From the IMG/VR virus record IMGVR_UViG_2585427787_000014: DNA of 40,925 nucleotides; one strand, given 5' to 3'. The notes below the pieces were generated by a model that did not search any database, had not been told where the DNA came from, and saw only the letters and a list, made by a program, of their open reading frames with translations. The stretch is from a virus (lineage: Duplodnaviria; Heunggongvirae; Uroviricota; Caudoviricetes). The position numbers and the translations under genes are program-made. Below are positions 3,093 to 35,228 of the stretch, piece by piece; within the stretch, counting starts at the first letter, position 1; every line of letters starts with the position of its first letter.

Positions 3093-3187
3093 CGTTTACT
3101 GTGCATGAAGAACCCCCTTAGTTGGTGAGTCCATCATACACAATAAACCATATATGGTTAAAATTAGTTAAGAATGCTCTTATCAAA

Positions 3188-5788: not shown

Positions 5789-5842
5789 GTTAAATCTCCA
5801 GATAGTCGCAGCACCCGTTGCGCCGCATATCTGGTTATTCTA

Positions 5843-5864
5843 TTACCCAAAAAACCACATATGG
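5843..5864. promoter_or_regulatory. conserved element TATTACC(C)AAwwwAACCACATATGr (copy B), upstream of tailspike
   Basis: Near-identical to 24884-24907; a partial match at 32062-32080. Confidence 0.4.
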
Positions 5865-5891
5865 ATAGAAAGACTGTAAATACGAATAGAT

Positions 5892-5908
5892 ATTACCTTT
5901 CGGGTAAT
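5892..5908. promoter_or_regulatory. 17-bp palindrome copy (ATTACC-TTTCG-GGTAAT)
   Basis: Perfect inverted repeat; in the divergent region between the tailspike start (5788) and gene 5985-6242. Confidence 0.55.
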
Positions 5909-5944
5909 TTGCAAAACGTGCTGGATAGCAAACAAATTATTTGA

Positions 5945-5964
5945 TACTGTATAAATATACAGTT
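5945..5964. promoter_or_regulatory. LexA (SOS) box
   Basis: TACTGTATAAATATACAGTT fits CTGT-N8-ACAG with an AT-rich spacer; ends 6 bp before the first ATG (5970) and 21 bp before the SD-preceded ATG (5985). Confidence 0.7.
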
Positions 5965-5984
5965 ATTGCATGGAGAAGATTAAG

Positions 5985-6242
5985 ATGCAGCAGTATCACT
6001 ATCCACTGGAAGACGGATTTACCGAAAGGATTCACACGCCGGGAGGCGTCAGGTCACTGGTGGAAGGATCGCACTTGATGAAATTACTCCGGGATCTCGA
6101 TAAGGATGGATTTAATGTCGATGGCCCACTTGCCGAACTGACTGCACTGATTAACTACGTCACCAGCTCACAGATGTCTATGCGGGATCTGCAAACACAT
6201 CTCGACTATTGTGCCGAACAATTACGAAAACAAACCAGATAA
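5985..6242 (+). CDS. small antirepressor-like protein; standalone homologue of the C-terminal domain of the Bro-N protein at 6558-7268
   Basis: GGAG Shine-Dalgarno 9 nt before ATG 5985 (alternative ATG at 5970). About 45% identity by eye over ~80 aa to the C-terminus of the 6558-7268 product (LMKLLRDLDKDGFNVDGPLAELT...RDLQTHLDY vs LMNLLNQLQDDGHDVSGAAAELT...RDIQTHAEY). Confidence 0.6.
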   Translation: MQQYHYPLEDGFTERIHTPGGVRSLVEGSHLMKLLRDLDKDGFNVDGPLAELTALINYVTSSQMSMRDLQTHLDYCAEQLRKQTR

Positions 6243-6272
6243 GGTTTGCAATTACCAAGTGGAGTGCTTATA

Positions 6273-6289
6273 TTTACCTTTGCGGTAAA
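6273..6289. promoter_or_regulatory. 17-bp palindrome copy (TTTACC-TTTGC-GGTAAA)
   Basis: Embedded in a longer imperfect inverted repeat (GGAGTGCT...AGCACTCC) just downstream of gene 5985-6242. Confidence 0.5.
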
Positions 6290-6379
6290 TTTACATAGCA
6301 CTCCTCTTGTGCCATAGTAATCGGGCACTGGCAAAATCCAGTGCCGGGATTGGCGTCCCGAGTTACTAAGTGGCGCATA

Positions 6380-6401
6380 CCACGCCAGACGTGGTTTTTT
6401 T
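6380..6401 (+). terminator. rho-independent terminator
   Basis: Stem CCACG / CGTGG with loop CCAGA, followed by T7. Confidence 0.55.
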
Positions 6402-6557
6402 ATGCGTTAAGCACAGCTATATCCGAATTATGGTGGGCTGGGCAGGGGTCCGAAAGGACGCCGGTACCACTTAGGCCGGTACGCCAACCTTGTCCAGTTC
6501 ACCACCAGTAATTGGCGTTGCGGTGGTGATTAAAATCACTAAGTGGAGATAACCACC

Positions 6558-7268
6558 ATGGCTAATGCTCAAACTGCCATCTTCAAATTTGAATCTGTTA
6601 ACCCTATCCGTTCCATCATTATCGATGGCCAACCATGGTTTGTAGCCCAAGACGTTTGTAGTGCGCTGCGTATCCAAAACGTCACCCAAGCACTTGAAAA
6701 ACTGGATGATGATGAAAGGTCTATGTTCAACATAGGGCATGAACATCGTGCAATTTTTGACAGCCGAGTAAAAGAGATCAACATCATCTCCGAGTCAGGC
6801 CTCTACACACTGATCCTCCGCTGCCGCGACGCAGTGACACCAGGCACTATCCCATACCGCTTTCGTAAATGGGTTACAGGTGAGGTTCTTCCTCAGATCC
6901 GCCGCACCGGAAGTTACATTAAAAACTCGCTCCCGCAGGAAGAGCGCATAAAGATGGTTGCCGACCAGGTAGCCAACGCCACAGCATCAGCAGTGATGCA
7001 GGCGATGAAGATAGAGAACAAAACCTACAGTGCCCCACTGAAGCCCGGCTACCGCAGCCTGATTCATTCGCCGTCTGGTGTTCTCGGCCTGACGGAGAAC
7101 TCACTGCTGATGAATCTGCTGAACCAGTTACAGGACGACGGGCACGACGTATCGGGCGCGGCGGCGGAGCTGACCACCATGTTCTGCTACATCGTCGGTG
7201 TGAGCAAATGCCTGCGTGATATCCAGACGCACGCGGAGTACATCAACGACAAGGCAGGGTTCTTCTGA
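6558..7268 (+). CDS. Bro-N domain antirepressor-like protein
   Basis: GGAG 9 nt before ATG 6558 (track ORF begins at GTG 6543). N-terminus (AIFKFESVNPIRSIIIDGQPWFVAQDVCSALRI...) has Bro-N/antirepressor character; C-terminal ~80 aa paralogous to the 5985-6242 product. Confidence 0.6.
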   Translation: MANAQTAIFKFESVNPIRSIIIDGQPWFVAQDVCSALRIQNVTQALEKLDDDERSMFNIGHEHRAIFDSRVKEINIISESGLYTLILRCRDAVTPGTIPYRFRKWVTGEVLPQIRRTGSYIKNSLPQEERIKMVADQVANATASAVMQAMKIENKTYSAPLKPGYRSLIHSPSGVLGLTENSLLMNLLNQLQDDGHDVSGAAAELTTMFCYIVGVSKCLRDIQTHAEYINDKAGFF

Positions 7269-7339
7269 CGGGCGGCGGCACAGGGATGTGCCTTTAAATA
7301 ATTCTGTACAGATTGCAGACTGTGGGTGAATAGCGTACT

Positions 7340-7356
7340 ATTACCTCAAGGGTAAA
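7340..7356. promoter_or_regulatory. 17-bp palindrome copy (ATTACC-TCAAG-GGTAAA)
   Basis: About 60 bp upstream of small ORF 7416-7595. Confidence 0.5.
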
Positions 7357-7415
7357 CGGATTGGTTTCATTTTTATTAATCCGTGTAATGAACTTATGAG
7401 ATATGAGGTAATGTC

Positions 7416-7595
7416 ATGCGAAACGAAAAATTGCAGATGCGTAGAGCGCAAGCTGCCGCAAGACGTTCTTTCAATGGAAGCGTAGAGTGCGTAAAAGTTA
7501 CTATGACAAAAGATCACGCAAGTCGCGTATCCCGCGCTTTCTTTGATTCTCGTAACAATAAGGAAAATTATGAGTTCGTCTGCGTCGCAGAATGA
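7416..7595 (+). CDS. small basic protein (59 aa) overlapping the start of the YafO-like gene; candidate antitoxin/regulator
   Basis: Not in the ORF track (<60 aa). ATG preceded by GAGGT; translation MRNEKLQMRRAQAAARRSFNGSVECVKVTMTKDHASRVSRAFFDSRNNKENYEFVCVAE; overlaps the next gene by 26 nt in another frame. Confidence 0.3.
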   Translation: MRNEKLQMRRAQAAARRSFNGSVECVKVTMTKDHASRVSRAFFDSRNNKENYEFVCVAE

Positions 7596-8115
7596 TAAAA
7601 ATCAAATTGTCAGATATAAGGGTCGAGTATTGCATACGCAAAATTTCTCGGCCCTTTGTGCATCTGATCTTGAGCTGAAGAAAGTATCTGATGCCTTTAC
7701 CCAGTATTGGAAAACGGGATACCATCCATCTCTTGGTAAAGATGCTGCATTTGCTCGTCCGACAGAAATGCTTAAACTAAATGTCAGGCATACTCATGTC
7801 GATAACCAAGACTATATTCCAGAAGATAGTGATAAAAAACACACTGGTAAAAAATCATCTTGGGATGCATGGAAAAAAATAGCGTCTGTGCAAGTAAAAT
7901 GCATACCAACAAGTAATTGCTTTTTAGTTTATTCGGTAAATCACAATCGTGATGCGCTGGTTATGTTTTTTGTTGACGCAGATGCCCACAACATAACTGA
8001 GCAAGAAGAGTTTAAAGAGGCAGCAATCACTATCAGTTATCAATTCTTTGAGAAAACAAAAACAGAACCAATGCCTTTAGAAGAAGATCTTTTTTCTGAT
8101 AAATGGAAGGAATAA
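7570..8115 (+). CDS. YafO-family toxin-like protein (type II TA-like candidate)
   Basis: AAGGA before ATG 7570 (track start 7543). Translation resembles E. coli YafO as I recall it (SLGKDAAF...NVRHTHV...CFLVYSV). AT-rich; has its own terminator. Confidence 0.45.
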   Translation: MSSSASQNDKNQIVRYKGRVLHTQNFSALCASDLELKKVSDAFTQYWKTGYHPSLGKDAAFARPTEMLKLNVRHTHVDNQDYIPEDSDKKHTGKKSSWDAWKKIASVQVKCIPTSNCFLVYSVNHNRDALVMFFVDADAHNITEQEEFKEAAITISYQFFEKTKTEPMPLEEDLFSDKWKE

Positions 8116-8136
8116 GCCCGCGCCGCGGGCTTTTTT
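8116..8136 (+). terminator. rho-independent terminator after the YafO-like gene
   Basis: GC-rich stem GCCCGCG / CGCGGGC followed by T6. Confidence 0.65.
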
Positions 8137-8208
8137 GTGGACGAAACAAAAGTCAGTGCTACACTCATTGACGCCACATTGAGGTGGATTATAGATGGAA
8201 ATTTCACA

Positions 8209-8370
8209 ATGAAAAAAGCATTTGCTGCACTGTTCGTTTTGTTGTCTCTGGTAGCTTCAACTCAGGCCTTTGCCGGTCGTTGTCAGCACGACAGCGATAC
8301 TGCCGCTGACGGCTCCCGCTGCGGTGGGCGTTCTGCGGATTCCCGCCCGGGTGGCGGTGGCATTCGTTAA
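8209..8370 (+). CDS. small secreted peptide (signal peptide plus ~30-aa Gly/Arg/Asp-rich tail)
   Basis: Internal start of track ORF 8137-8370: MKKAFAALFVLLSLVASTQAFA then GRCQHDSDTAADGSRCGGRSADSRPGGGGIR. Confidence 0.3.
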   Translation: MKKAFAALFVLLSLVASTQAFAGRCQHDSDTAADGSRCGGRSADSRPGGGGIR

Positions 8371-8375
8371 AAACA

Positions 8376-8393
8376 AGGCCGCGAAAGCGGCCT
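8376..8393 (-). terminator. hairpin terminator between convergent genes
   Basis: Stem AGGCCGC / GCGGCCT with loop GAAA; T-rich tract follows on the minus strand, downstream of gene 8402-8698. Confidence 0.5.
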
Positions 8394-8401
8394 GTGACAT
8401 G

Positions 8402-8698
8402 TCACGTTCCTTTTCTGAATGATAGCCGTTCGAAAAATGATGACATTCCACCGCAGACAATAGCAAAGATGATCCCACCAAAGAAGAGAAGGCCAGCCTG
8501 CCACCACTCCCACCGCCATACATCCACAGCGCCAATCATACCAACAATCGCTCCAACAAACGGAATATAACTCACGACAAAAGCAACGGGAGCTGCAATT
8601 ACCCAGTGCAACCCCCACCATGATTCAAGCCCAGCCATAATTGCTGCCAACTGAAAAAGACCAACGACGATATAAACAATGAATCCTATAGCTTGCAT
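8402..8698 (-). CDS. small integral membrane protein (last gene of the internal-virion operon)
   Basis: 98-aa ORF with hydrophobic helices separated by a Trp-rich loop (VDVWRWEWWQ). Confidence 0.5.
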   Translation of the reverse strand: MQAIGFIVYIVVGLFQLAAIMAGLESWWGLHWVIAAPVAFVVSYIPFVGAIVGMIGAVDVWRWEWWQAGLLFFGGIIFAIVCGGMSSFFERLSFRKGT

Positions 8699-32061: not shown

Positions 32062-32106
32062 TAAAAACCACATAAGACATGAAATCAATAGATTTTAGAA
32101 TATTTT

Positions 32107-34123: not shown

Positions 34124-34354
34124 TCATGAGTAGAAGAAGTATGCCAGTTCTGCTTTTGAGCGCAGCCATTGTCTTGTTTTACAGGCTTTAAAAAGCCCAT
34201 TCATCAATACCTTACCTGGCATTTTGCGCTTACCTGTTAAGTGAGTCTGGATATAGTGACTCGTCGTTCCGGCTTCCTGTGCGAAGGCTTCACGCTCGTC
34301 CGGAGTAAGTGCAAGCCAGTGCTTTTTGAAATCGAAATGTCCGTTATCGCTCAT
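34124..34354 (-). CDS. Cro-like small HTH regulator (first gene of the replication-side operon)
   Basis: 76-aa ORF with HTH-like segment (REAFAQEAGTTSHYIQTHLTGKRKMP); divergent from the CI-like gene across an operator-rich region. Confidence 0.55.
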   Translation of the reverse strand: MSDNGHFDFKKHWLALTPDEREAFAQEAGTTSHYIQTHLTGKRKMPGKVLMNGLFKACKTRQWLRSKAELAYFFYS

Positions 34355-34437: not shown

Positions 34438-34454
34438 TTTACCTGTTGGGTAAT
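34438..34454. promoter_or_regulatory. operator-like palindrome (TTTACC-TGTTG-GGTAAT); site 3 of 3
   Basis: 55 bp upstream of the CI-like ATG (34509); same spacer TGTTG as the copy at 35150. Confidence 0.5.
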
Positions 34455-34508: not shown

Positions 34509-35093
34509 ATGAAAAGTATCCAGGACGTCCGCAGGCAAAATCTCAACGACTTGATCGACCGTGAATTCAATGGTGTTCAGACGCGGATGGCAGAAAAACT
34601 TGGAACTCAGGCAAATCTGGTAAACCGCTGGGCTCTTGGCAAGAAGGTTATCGGCGACCAGGTTGCGCGAAAAATTGAAGCTGCCGCCAATAAACCCCGT
34701 AACTGGCTTGATATCGATCGCTCGCTTTCTCAGGAAGGTTTTCAGCCTGTCGGCCCGAGTGATATAGGTCAGCTGGCTGCTCACAACCTGGAACGCTGGA
34801 TGAGCGAAAGCCGCGACCTTTCAACGCAGGGAAAACTACACCGCGCATCCGGCGTCGCCCAGGTGACAATCAGCCGCCTGTTAAACAATGAGGTCAGCGT
34901 TTCCATTTCCACCCTGGAGAATGTTGCATCCGCATTCGGGCGTCATGGCTATGAATTACTGATTCACCCGCACGACCCTGCGACTATCAACTATGACCGC
35001 TCGCGCTACGCATTGTTACCCGAAACCGAGAAAGCAAAGATCGAAAGTTACATTGAATTTGTCATCAACCAGAACGAAAAAAACAAACAATAA
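34509..35093 (+). CDS. CI-like repressor with two HTH (XRE-type) domains and no recognisable peptidase domain
   Basis: 194-aa ORF; HTH-like segments near residues 20-60 (GVQTRMAEKLGTQANLVNRWALGKK) and 95-150 (LHRASGVAQVTISRLLNNEV); no LexA/S24-like Ser-Lys region seen; followed by a terminator. Confidence 0.55.
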   Translation: MKSIQDVRRQNLNDLIDREFNGVQTRMAEKLGTQANLVNRWALGKKVIGDQVARKIEAAANKPRNWLDIDRSLSQEGFQPVGPSDIGQLAAHNLERWMSESRDLSTQGKLHRASGVAQVTISRLLNNEVSVSISTLENVASAFGRHGYELLIHPHDPATINYDRSRYALLPETEKAKIESYIEFVINQNEKNKQ

Positions 35094-35149: not shown

Positions 35150-35166
35150 ATTACCTGTTGGGTAAT
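35150..35166. promoter_or_regulatory. operator-like palindrome (ATTACC-TGTTG-GGTAAT), upstream site of the leftward-type early promoter
   Basis: Perfect; about 20 bp upstream of a TTGACA hexamer (35186-35191). Confidence 0.55.
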
Positions 35167-35211
35167 TTTTTTAACTCATATCTATTGACATCAAACCAGA
35201 TACGCATAATT

Positions 35212-35228
35212 ATTACCTCAACGGTAAC
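35212..35228. promoter_or_regulatory. operator-like palindrome (ATTACC-TCAAC-GGTAAC) overlapping the putative -10 region
   Basis: Starts 20 bp after TTGACA and ends 18 bp before ATG 35247. Confidence 0.55.

What the first reader, a model, noticed from the sequence alone, without database searches (positions are those of the whole stretch)
5945..7268. LexA box in front of a small gene paralogous to the C-terminus of a Bro-N protein: candidate SOS-antirepressor induction circuit
TACTGTATAAATATACAGTT (5945-5964) fits the enterobacterial LexA consensus CTGT-N8-ACAG and lies just upstream of gene 5985-6242. That 85-aa product aligns over ~80 aa with the C-terminus of the Bro-N-domain protein at 6558-7268, so it is a standalone copy of that domain. 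The CI-like repressor (34509-35093) shows two HTH regions but no recognisable autocleavage domain. Together these fit the Tum (phage 186) / Gifsy-type mechanism, where a LexA-controlled antirepressor inactivates a non-cleavable repressor. The location beside the tailspike parallels the immI region of P22. Each gene is also preceded by a copy of the 17-bp palindrome, implying dual control.
Basis: partly seen in the sequence, partly recalled or inferred. Interest (0 to 1): 0.8.

Follow-up and report, generated by a model that had tools for sequence, protein, structure and literature searches.

The report
Known SOS antirepressor switch plus RNA-controlled paralog

Summary
The window is a Uetakevirus (epsilon15/phiV10-like) prophage. 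TACTGTATAAATATACAGTT (5945-5964) is the only near-consensus LexA box in 41 kb, and it sits at a conserved distance from gene 5985-6242 in relatives. That gene is the orthologue of SPC32H Ant (PDB 5D50 chain E, E 1e-46). The repressor at 34509-35093 is the orthologue of SPC32H Rep (5D50 chain A) and has no peptidase domain. So the proposed SOS-antirepressor circuit is right, but it is already described for this phage genus.

The Bro-N protein (6558-7268) does end in an Ant domain (43% identity). It is not headed by a LexA box. Between the two genes lie an isrK-like RNA (6325-6401) and a C4 antisense RNA (6426-6509), both above Rfam gathering scores. The C4 loop is complementary to a site in isrK and to the Shine-Dalgarno region of the Bro-N gene, and these three sites covary across phages. 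This is P1 immI / Gifsy-1 isrK-anrP-type control.

The 17-bp palindrome is the multi-copy putative Rep operator (12 copies at N5 spacing; 14 with N4-9 against 0.09 expected). Dual control of ant remains unproven. The circuit is ordinary; the tandem arrangement is modestly interesting.

The parts
5892..5908 (.). 17-bp palindrome ATTACCTTTCGGGTAAT, putative Rep operator in the divergent tailspike/ant control region
   Evidence: One of 12 TTACC-N5-GGTAA copies (14 with N4-9 spacing; 0.09 expected by chance). Half-sites are invariant in 6 phages. The epsilon15 GenBank record annotates the equivalent site as a 'repressor / lysogeny' protein_bind feature.
5945..5964 (+). LexA (SOS) box TACTGTATAAATATACAGTT
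   Evidence: Unique in the window at up to 3 mismatches to the consensus, with 0 hits in shuffles. Positionally conserved 19-20 bp before the ant ATG. SPC32N carries a point change inside the box.
5985..6242 (+). ant: 85-aa SPC32H-type antirepressor
   Evidence: PDB 5D50_E 'Anti-repressor protein', E 1.4e-46, residues 2-84 aligned. Blastn match to the annotated SPC32H ant gene. Matches phrog_450.
6273..6289 (.). Second operator palindrome TTTACCTTTGCGGTAAA, abutting the -35 of the candidate isrK promoter
   Evidence: Conserved in phiV10 and ZX5.
6290..6318 (+). Candidate promoter TTTACA-17-CATAGT (TG upstream of the -10). The predicted start is near G6325, which is isrK nucleotide 1.
   Evidence: Consensus scan only. 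The -35 is not conserved in phiV10. This part is inferred.
6325..6401 (+). isrK-like RNA (a1/b1-type target element) with intrinsic terminator 6379-6401. C4-complementary sites lie at 6350-6356 and 6366-6373.
   Evidence: Rfam RF01394, 67.2 bits against a gathering score of 50. Terminator. Complementarity.
6426..6509 (+). C4 antisense RNA. Exposed pairing segments are CCACUUAG (hairpin-2 loop, 6467-6474) and ACGCCAA (6481-6487).
   Evidence: Rfam RF01695, 66 bits against a gathering score of 45. MFE -43.6 kcal/mol, z -5.0, with both segments unpaired.
6512..6548 (+). Downstream C4 target (a2/b2-like): TTGGCGT 6512-6518 and CTAAGTGG 6539-6546. The latter overlaps the Shine-Dalgarno GGAG (6545-6548) of the Bro-N gene.
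   Evidence: Covaries with the C4 loop in phiV10, ZX5 and TL-2011b (CCUUUUAG with CUAAAAGG) and in 6 further phages.
6558..7268 (+). Bro-N::Ant fusion antirepressor (236 aa): Bro-N domain at residues 17-112, Ant domain at about 155-232
   Evidence: The ZX5 ORF4 protein is 85% identical. When overexpressed it cut lysogens about 1000-fold (PMC9782041).
34509..35093 (+). rep: 194-aa non-cleavable repressor, orthologue of SPC32H Rep
   Evidence: PDB 5D50_A at 4e-42 and 5D4Z_A at 4e-20. No S24 domain. N-terminal domain 52% and C-terminal part 37% identical to SPC32H Rep.
35150..35228 (+). Operator pair (35150-35166 and 35212-35228, centres 62 bp apart) flanking the promoter TTGACA-17-AATTAT downstream of rep. 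A further operator lies at 34438-34454, upstream of rep.
   Evidence: The same 62-bp pairs occur in epsilon15 and SPC32H.

Best explanation
Region 5892-7268 holds two antirepressor expression modules. Both are aimed at the non-cleavable repressor Rep (34509-35093).

Module 1 (5892-6242) is the orthologue of the SPC32H switch. In a lysogen, host LexA sits on the box at 5945-5964 and keeps ant silent. DNA damage cleaves LexA and Ant is made. Ant binds the C-terminal tetramerisation region of Rep and breaks the DNA-binding tetramer, so the operator-controlled lytic promoters fire.

Module 2 (6273-7268) is an immI-like cassette. A promoter abutting a Rep operator drives an isrK-like RNA, then the C4 antisense RNA, then a Bro-N::Ant fusion gene. 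C4 pairs through two exposed segments with the ribosome-binding region of the fusion gene and with a decoy copy of the same sites in isrK. The second antirepressor is therefore translated only when C4 is absent, outnumbered or of a different specificity.

Shown here: the homologies, the sequence elements, the RNA family matches, and the complementarity with its covariation.

Inferred by analogy with SPC32H, P1/P7, Gifsy-1 and ZX5: LexA binding, Ant-Rep binding, the C4 translational block, and the role of the operators.
For: Identity of the phage and the proteins:
- The window is an epsilon15/phiV10-like Uetakevirus.
- Ant matches PDB 5D50_E at 1.4e-46.
- Rep matches 5D50_A at 4e-42 and has no S24 peptidase domain.

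LexA box:
- It is unique in the window and positionally conserved.
- SPC32N differs from SPC32H inside the box.

Literature on the switch:
- Ant is made after LexA cleavage and inhibits the repressor by protein-protein contact (PMC7380047, citing Kim & Ryu 2013).
- The Ant tetramer binds two Rep dimers and breaks the Rep tetramer (PMC9638917).
- The Rep C-terminal tetramerisation domain also binds Ant (PMC9986798).

The fusion protein:
- The Bro-N C-terminus is an Ant domain, conserved in E. coli, Enterobacter and Klebsiella phages.
- The ZX5 homologue lowers lysogeny when overexpressed (PMC9782041).

The RNAs:
- isrK and C4 score above Rfam gathering thresholds.
- The tandem is present in 10 related or unrelated phages but absent from SPC32H and epsilon15.
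- The C4 loop is complementary to a site in isrK and a site at the Shine-Dalgarno region. Cognate helices average 8.3 and 8.8 bp against 4.5 and 5.7 bp for non-cognate pairs.
- The window and phiV10 differ by concerted changes at all three sites.
- C4 folds with z = -5.0 and both pairing segments unpaired.
- The P1/P7 c4 mechanism is described in PMC12197685, and Gifsy-1 isrK-orf45-anrP in PMC4825925.
Against: - Nothing was measured for this phage.
- The simple sigma-70 scan finds no consensus promoter for ant, so I cannot say whether the LexA box overlaps the -10 or the transcription start.
- Rep is only about 45% identical to SPC32H Rep, so Ant-Rep compatibility is inferred. The C-terminal roughly 35 residues are about 53% identical by my own count of the alignment.
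- The leader ORF that couples translation in Gifsy-1 (orf45) is broken in the window by a 2-nt indel and a stop after 14 codons (and direct reading). The Gifsy-1 mechanism therefore cannot apply unchanged.
- The phiV10 copy of the fusion gene is frameshifted, so module 2 is dispensable for at least one viable phage.
- If Rep shuts the isrK promoter in lysogens, C4 may not be present there.
Confidence: 0.8

Rival explanations
1. The Bro-N::Ant protein is not a second inducer of its own prophage. Instead it is an anti-immunity weapon, expressed from an incoming genome to inactivate the Rep of a resident related prophage. C4 loop types would then define immI-like heteroimmunity groups among phages that share Rep operators, as with P1 versus P7.
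For: - All Uetakeviruses examined use the same TTACC-N5-GGTAA operator.
- Their C4 loops differ: CCACUUAG in the window and HEMP4, CCUUUUAG in phiV10, ZX5 and TL-2011b, CCUUUGUAG in Tyrion, CCGUUUAG in the Klebsiella phage. Target sites change to match.
- P1/P7 heteroimmunity rests on c4 (PMC12197685).
- The phiV10 authors annotated the gene as a 'putative anti-immunity protein'.
Against: - A resident Rep should also bind the operator abutting the incoming isrK promoter (6273-6289), which could block expression.
- No superinfection data exist.
- This reading is compatible with the best explanation rather than exclusive of it.
Confidence: 0.3
2. The 17-bp palindrome is not a Rep operator acting on ant. 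It is the site of another regulator (for example the Cro-like protein at 34130-34354 on the minus strand), or it serves only the divergent tailspike and late promoters. In that case ant is under LexA control alone.
For: - The palindrome is symmetric and lies in a divergent intergenic region.
- It also occurs at the lysis, structural and tRNA regions, often with a second motif ATATGTGGTT on the side of the late genes.
- Repression of ant by Rep would seem to work against SOS induction.
- No binding data were available to me.
Against: - Copies are concentrated around rep, as 62-bp-spaced pairs that bracket a strong promoter. That fits a tetrameric repressor (PMC9638917).
- The epsilon15 record calls these sites repressor sites.
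- The half-sites upstream of ant are invariant while flanking bases drift.
Confidence: 0.2
3. The LexA-like palindrome is fortuitous AT-rich promoter sequence, and ant is controlled in some other way.
For: The bare CTGT-N8-ACAG motif with up to 1 mismatch is not enriched in the window (16 hits against 13.6 expected).
Against: - The site matches 18 of 20 consensus positions and no shuffle produced such a match.
- Its position is conserved across phages of E. coli, Salmonella and Enterobacter hosts.
- SPC32N differs from SPC32H by a single base in this region, inside the box.
Confidence: 0.03

Closest known systems
SPC32H Ant-Rep-LexA antirepression switch (Kim & Ryu 2013, J Virol 87:11775; Kim et al. 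2016, PNAS 113:E2480; PDB 5D50 and 5D4Z)
   Same: - Same phage genus.
- Ant about 85% identical.
- Rep is homologous over its full length.
- The LexA box is at the same distance from the ant ATG, and the same operator palindrome lies upstream.
- Same genomic slot, next to the tailspike gene.
   Different: - The host is E. coli.
- Rep is only about 45% identical.
- SPC32H and epsilon15 have ant alone, followed by a terminator. The window adds the isrK/C4/Bro-N::Ant cassette downstream.
P1/P7 immI operon (c4 antisense RNA - icd - ant; Rfam RF01695 and RF03163, clan CL00128)
   Same: - A C4 RNA encoded upstream of an antirepressor gene on the same strand.
- Exposed segments complementary to an upstream site set and to a downstream set at the ribosome-binding site.
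- Specificity variants with compensatory target changes (PMC12197685).
   Different: - No intact leader ORF equivalent to icd.
- The antirepressor is Bro-N plus an SPC32H-type Ant domain, not P1 Ant1/2.
- The target repressor is Rep, not C1.
Gifsy-1 isrK-orf45(STnc1160)-anrP locus (Hershko-Shalev et al. 2016, PMC4825925)
   Same: The order is isrK with its own terminator, then a structured RNA/ORF region, then an antirepressor-like gene. In Gifsy-1, read-through of the isrK terminator makes a translationally inactive long transcript. The window region is predicted to fold so that the SD and AUG are sequestered.
   Different: - orf45 is disrupted in the window.
- No antQ gene lies upstream.
- The window cassette lies directly behind a LexA-controlled ant gene, with no terminator in between.
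Phage 186 Tum and Gifsy/Fels-2 LexA-controlled antirepressors (Shearwin 1998; Lemire et al. 2011, PMC3121763)
   Same: The logic is the same: LexA represses a small antirepressor, which inactivates a repressor that cannot cleave itself.
   Different: Sequence relatedness to Tum was not tested here. From my memory of the Kim & Ryu abstract, Ant is described as structurally distinct from those antirepressors. This is functional analogy only.
P22 immI (mnt-arc-ant with sar RNA)
   Same: - Position next to the tailspike gene (P22 map from my own knowledge).
- A secondary immunity region encoding an antirepressor under antisense-RNA control.
   Different: - The window has no sar hit.
- No Arc or Mnt family was hit among the seven proteins scanned.
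- The relative TL-2011b does carry a sar hit in this slot.

Membership tests
SPC32H-type Ant/Rep/LexA switch | Small (about 86 aa) Ant protein homologous to PDB 5D50 chain E | tested here: met
   phmmer E 1.4e-46, residues 2-84 aligned to 3-85 of the chain.
SPC32H-type Ant/Rep/LexA switch | Cognate Rep with two HTH-type regions and a C-terminal tetramerisation/Ant-binding region, and no autocleavage (S24) domain | tested here: met
   5D50_A at 4e-42 over residues 1-190. Pfam gives HTH_3 and a weak YdaS-like HTH only.
SPC32H-type Ant/Rep/LexA switch | LexA box immediately upstream of ant, positionally conserved | tested here: met
   18/20 match to consensus and unique in the window. The box ends 19-20 bp before the ATG in 6 phages, and SPC32N has a point change in it.
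SPC32H-type Ant/Rep/LexA switch | LexA binds the box, ant is SOS-induced, and Ant binds Rep and releases it from DNA | not testable with these tools
   Needs gel-shift assays, qPCR and pull-downs. Known for SPC32H only from the literature.
P1/P7 immI - C4 antisense RNA system (incl. Gifsy-1 isrK locus) | C4 RNA matching Rfam RF01695 at the gathering score | tested here: met
   66.0 bits against 45, full-length model match at 6426-6509. Stable fold, z -5.0.
P1/P7 immI - C4 antisense RNA system (incl. Gifsy-1 isrK locus) | Upstream target element (a1/b1, isrK) on the same strand | tested here: met
   isrK RF01394, 67.2 bits against 50, at 6325-6401. It contains both C4-complementary sites.
P1/P7 immI - C4 antisense RNA system (incl. 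Gifsy-1 isrK locus) | C4 single-stranded segments complementary to the ribosome-binding region of the downstream antirepressor gene, with covariation between phages | tested here: met
   The loop at 6467-6474 pairs with 6539-6546, which overlaps SD GGAG at 6545-6548. Cognate helices exceed non-cognate ones in 9 loci. The window and phiV10 show concerted changes.
P1/P7 immI - C4 antisense RNA system (incl. Gifsy-1 isrK locus) | Leader ORF (icd / orf45) translationally coupled to the antirepressor gene | tested here: not met
   The ORF is open in phiV10 and ZX5 (ZX5 annotates it as a 38-aa 'ash family protein'). In the window it stops after 14 codons because of a 2-nt indel (direct reading of 6430-6474).
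P1/P7 immI - C4 antisense RNA system (incl. Gifsy-1 isrK locus) | C4 processed from the precursor and blocks translation in vivo | not testable with these tools
   Needs Northern blots, reporter fusions and loop mutants.
Bro-N family (Pfam PF02498) | Bro-N domain above the Pfam gathering score | tested here: met
   71.5 bits against 25.6, residues 17-112.
Tum (186) / Gifsy antirepressor family | Sequence homology to Tum/GfoA-type antirepressors | not tested
   No Tum sequence was compared. Pfam gave no meaningful hit for Ant. Only the regulatory logic is shared.
P22 immI | sar antisense RNA and Arc/Mnt repressors next to ant | tested here: not met
   No sar hit in the window at gathering threshold. 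No Arc/Mnt Pfam hit among the seven proteins scanned, which included neighbouring small ORFs. The other ORFs of the region were not scanned.

The most novel reading that the evidence does not exclude
The two modules may be wired in series.

No terminator lies between the ant stop codon (6242) and the isrK terminator (6379-6401). SOS-induced ant transcripts should therefore end in an isrK (a1/b1 decoy) 3' UTR. That UTR could titrate C4 and unlock translation of Bro-N::Ant. The result would be a LexA-to-RNA feed-forward that turns a graded SOS signal into a committed two-antirepressor switch.

At the same time, C4 loop variants would create immI-type heteroimmunity classes among Uetakeviruses that share one Rep operator specificity.
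Probability: 0.2. Interest if true: 0.6.

Novelty: new member of a known kind. Interest (0 to 1): 0.3.

Why it matters
- Prevalence: matches to this region occur in 535 of 5426 complete E. coli genomes, and 179 genomes hold at least 80% of it.
- Annotation gap: Ant has no Pfam model, its PHROG is labelled 'unknown function', and RefSeq calls it hypothetical, although a crystal structure names it. Prophage-induction predictions for these strains therefore miss the real SOS sensor.
- Published work: the paper on ZX5 tested only the Bro-N protein. It does not mention SPC32H, and the ZX5 record annotates the small ant gene only as a hypothetical protein.
- Domain modularity: the SPC32H-type Ant fold also occurs as the C-terminal module of Bro-N, AntA, Rha and ORF6N proteins. 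This suggests the C-terminus may be what determines which repressor such 'antirepressors' target.
- Control: two copies of this module sit under different control here, one protein-based (LexA) and one RNA-based (C4). That gives a tractable system for studying multi-input lysis-lysogeny decisions.
- Scope: none of this changes the known principles.

Tried and rejected
- Primary papers: I tried to read Kim & Ryu 2013, Kim et al. 2016 and the epsilon15 genome paper. None is held. SPC32H facts therefore come from PDB names, GenBank annotation, three citing papers and, where marked, my memory.
- LexA motif: the bare CTGT-N8-ACAG motif is not enriched. I used the 20-mer consensus instead. I did not compute a heterology index because I could not reproduce its matrix reliably.
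- ant promoter: the sigma-70 scan found no promoter for ant. Hand-picked candidates (TAGCAA-18-TATAAA overlapping the box; TTGCAA-17-ACAAAT next to the operator) are weak, so the promoter position stays unresolved.
- LexA control of the Bro-N gene: rejected, because there is no box near it.
- P22-type immI: rejected for the window, because there is no sar hit.
- Gifsy-1-style translational coupling through orf45: rejected for the window, because the ORF is broken.
- Operator/LexA spacing: I checked whether the LexA box sits where P_L has its second operator. The spacings are 54.5 bp and 62 bp, so there is no match.
- Structure prediction: not run for the fusion protein. The sequence match to 5D50_E (2e-13) already settles the domain assignment, and the allowed inputs would have given a shallow alignment.
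Full report
**What the window is.**
Region 5800-7400 is 98% identical to Escherichia phage HEMP4. It is 92-95% identical to phiV10, TL-2011b, ZX5 and other Uetakeviruses, the epsilon15-like podoviruses. A distant-mode search with 5790-6300 (ant and its upstream region) also finds the Salmonella members SPC32H, SPC32N, SPN1S and epsilon15, plus Enterobacter and Klebsiella relatives. Matches occur in 535 of 5426 complete E. coli genomes, and 179 genomes hold at least 80% of the region.

**Check of the observation.**
- *LexA box.* The sequence at 5945-5964 is TACTGTATAAATATACAGTT. It is the only site in the window within three mismatches of the 20-bp LexA consensus, and no shuffle produced such a site. 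The minimal 16-mer motif alone is uninformative. In an alignment of six phages, the box ends 19-20 bp before the start codon of the small gene. SPC32N differs from SPC32H in the aligned ~200-bp ant-upstream region by one base, a C-to-A change in the right arm of the box. From my memory of the Kim & Ryu 2013 abstract, the two genomes differ by only two nucleotides in all, and this mutation makes Ant constitutive.
- *Paralogy.* The 85-aa product of 5985-6242 and residues 155-228 of the 236-aa Bro-N protein (6558-7268) are 43% identical, E 3e-16.
- *Repressor.* The protein at 34509-35093 has one clear HTH (HTH_3, residues 106-147), a weak one (residues 21-61), and no S24 peptidase domain.

**What the genes are.**
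- The small protein matches PDB 5D50 chain E, 'Anti-repressor protein', at E 1.4e-46.
- The repressor matches 5D50 chain A at 4e-42 and 5D4Z at 4e-20.
- These are the Rep-Ant complex and the Rep C-terminal fragment of Salmonella phage SPC32H. The SPC32H GenBank record annotates ant in the same slot next to the tailspike gene.
- Citing papers give three facts. After LexA self-cleavage an antirepressor is made that inhibits the repressor by protein-protein contact (PMC7380047, citing Kim & Ryu 2013). Rep binds DNA as a tetramer, and an Ant tetramer binds two Rep dimers and breaks the tetramer (PMC9638917). Rep's C-terminal tetramerisation domain is also the Ant-binding surface (PMC9986798).
It works like Tum and the Gifsy antirepressors. 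Membership of that family was not tested.

**The missed part: what controls the Bro-N paralog.**
- No LexA box lies near the Bro-N gene.
- Rfam at gathering thresholds finds an isrK-like RNA at 6325-6401 (67 bits; threshold 50) and a C4 antisense RNA at 6426-6509 (66 bits; threshold 45), both on the plus strand between the two genes.
- C4 folds at -43.6 kcal/mol (z -5.0). Two segments are left unpaired: the hairpin-2 loop CCACUUAG (6467-6474) and ACGCCAA (6481-6487).
- Both segments are complementary, in the correct antiparallel order, to UUGGCGU...CUAAGUGG in isrK (6350-6356, 6366-6373). They are also complementary to UUGGCGU...CUAAGUGG at 6512-6518 and 6539-6546, the latter overlapping the Shine-Dalgarno GGAG (6545-6548) of the Bro-N gene.
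- The loop and both targets covary. phiV10, ZX5 and TL-2011b have CCUUUUAG with CUAAAAGG at both sites. Six more phages each have their own matching triplet. Cognate helices average 8.3 and 8.8 bp, against 4.5 and 5.7 bp for non-cognate pairs.
- The isrK+C4 tandem precedes an antirepressor-like gene in ten phages examined, including VT2-Sakai and SfV. It is absent from SPC32H and epsilon15, which have ant only.
- This is the architecture of P1/P7 immI, where c4 RNA blocks the ant ribosome-binding site and determines P1/P7 heteroimmunity (PMC12197685). It is also the architecture of Gifsy-1 isrK-orf45(STnc1160)-anrP (PMC4825925).
- One feature is not shared. The orf45/icd-like leader ORF is open in phiV10 and ZX5 but is cut to 14 codons in the window by a 2-nt indel.

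**The fusion protein.**
- Bro-N::Ant is conserved in E. coli, Enterobacter and Klebsiella phages. It is frameshifted in phiV10.
- A profile search of 1.8 billion representative proteins finds only 63 Ant-domain clusters. The longer members carry the domain at the C-terminus behind Bro-N, AntA, Phage_pRha or ORF6N domains.
- The ZX5 homologue (ORF4, 85% identical) reduced lysogens from 10^9 to 10^6 when overexpressed. ZX5 lysogens are inducible with mitomycin C (PMC9782041). A search of that paper found no mention of SPC32H, and the ZX5 record annotates the small ant gene only as a hypothetical protein.

**The palindrome.**
- TTACC-N5-GGTAA occurs 12 times in the window (14 times with N4-9 spacing; 0.09 expected).
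- It occurs around rep, including a pair whose centres are 62 bp apart and which brackets TTGACA-17-AATTAT. It also occurs at the lysis, structural and tRNA regions.
- The same sites and the same 62-bp pairs occur in epsilon15 and SPC32H. The epsilon15 record labels them repressor-binding.
- The copy at 5892-5908 lies in the divergent tailspike/ant region. It could serve either promoter.
- The copy at 6273-6289 abuts the -35 of a candidate isrK promoter.
- 'Dual control' is therefore plausible for module 2 and open for ant.

**Verdict.**
The finding is real and correctly interpreted. It describes an orthologue of a known switch. The added value here is the recognition of a second module, RNA-gated and immI-like, built on the same effector domain, and of its specificity variants.

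Noticed in passing
L002 (TL-2011b) 7461-8645, sar hit at 8407-8474: TL-2011b has a P22 sar RNA hit (RF00262, 44.8 bits against 43) between a 314-aa and a 55-aa minus-strand ORF. This looks like P22-type ant and arc. The slot between the tailspike and injection genes seems to collect antirepressor modules of three different kinds.
   Followed up: no
window 7340-8132: A third operator-headed unit. It comprises palindrome 7340-7356, TTGGTT-17-TGTAAT, overlapping genes 7416-7595 (59 aa, phrog_6685) and 7570-8115 (181 aa, phrog_1651, with a weak sub-threshold YafO_toxin match), and a terminator at 8114-8132. It could be a toxin-antitoxin-like or moron pair under Rep control.
   Followed up: partly
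window 5855-5870, and near 3150, 24905 and 32065-32075: A second recurring motif, CCACATATGG / ATATGTGGTT, lies about 40-50 bp from several operators on the side of late or structural genes. The epsilon15 record annotates the equivalent as an IHF site.
   Followed up: no
window 25285-25361: A phage-encoded tRNA-Arg (anticodon TCT) sits between operator copies at 24948 and 25563.
   Followed up: no
L009 (Klebsiella phage ST11-OXA245phi3.2) 2655-2680: The LexA box upstream of its ant has a degenerate left arm (ATGT instead of CTGT). This recalls the SPC32N box mutant, which from my memory of the Kim & Ryu 2013 abstract makes Ant constitutive. The phage may be poorly repressed or clear-plaque.
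   Followed up: no
window 6430-6552: The 'ash family' / orf45-like small ORF overlaps C4. It is intact in ZX5 and phiV10 but broken in the window, while the RNA structure is kept. This argues that the RNA, not the peptide, is the conserved element here.
   Followed up: partly
window 5985-6242: The Ant family has no Pfam model, its PHROG (450) is labelled 'unknown function', and RefSeq calls it hypothetical, despite a solved structure named 'Anti-repressor protein'.
   Followed up: yes
window 6558-6770 compared with L003 and L002: The first ~70 residues of the window's Bro-N domain diverge sharply from ZX5 and TL-2011b, while the rest of the protein is nearly identical. This suggests a mosaic recombination joint inside the gene.
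   Followed up: no
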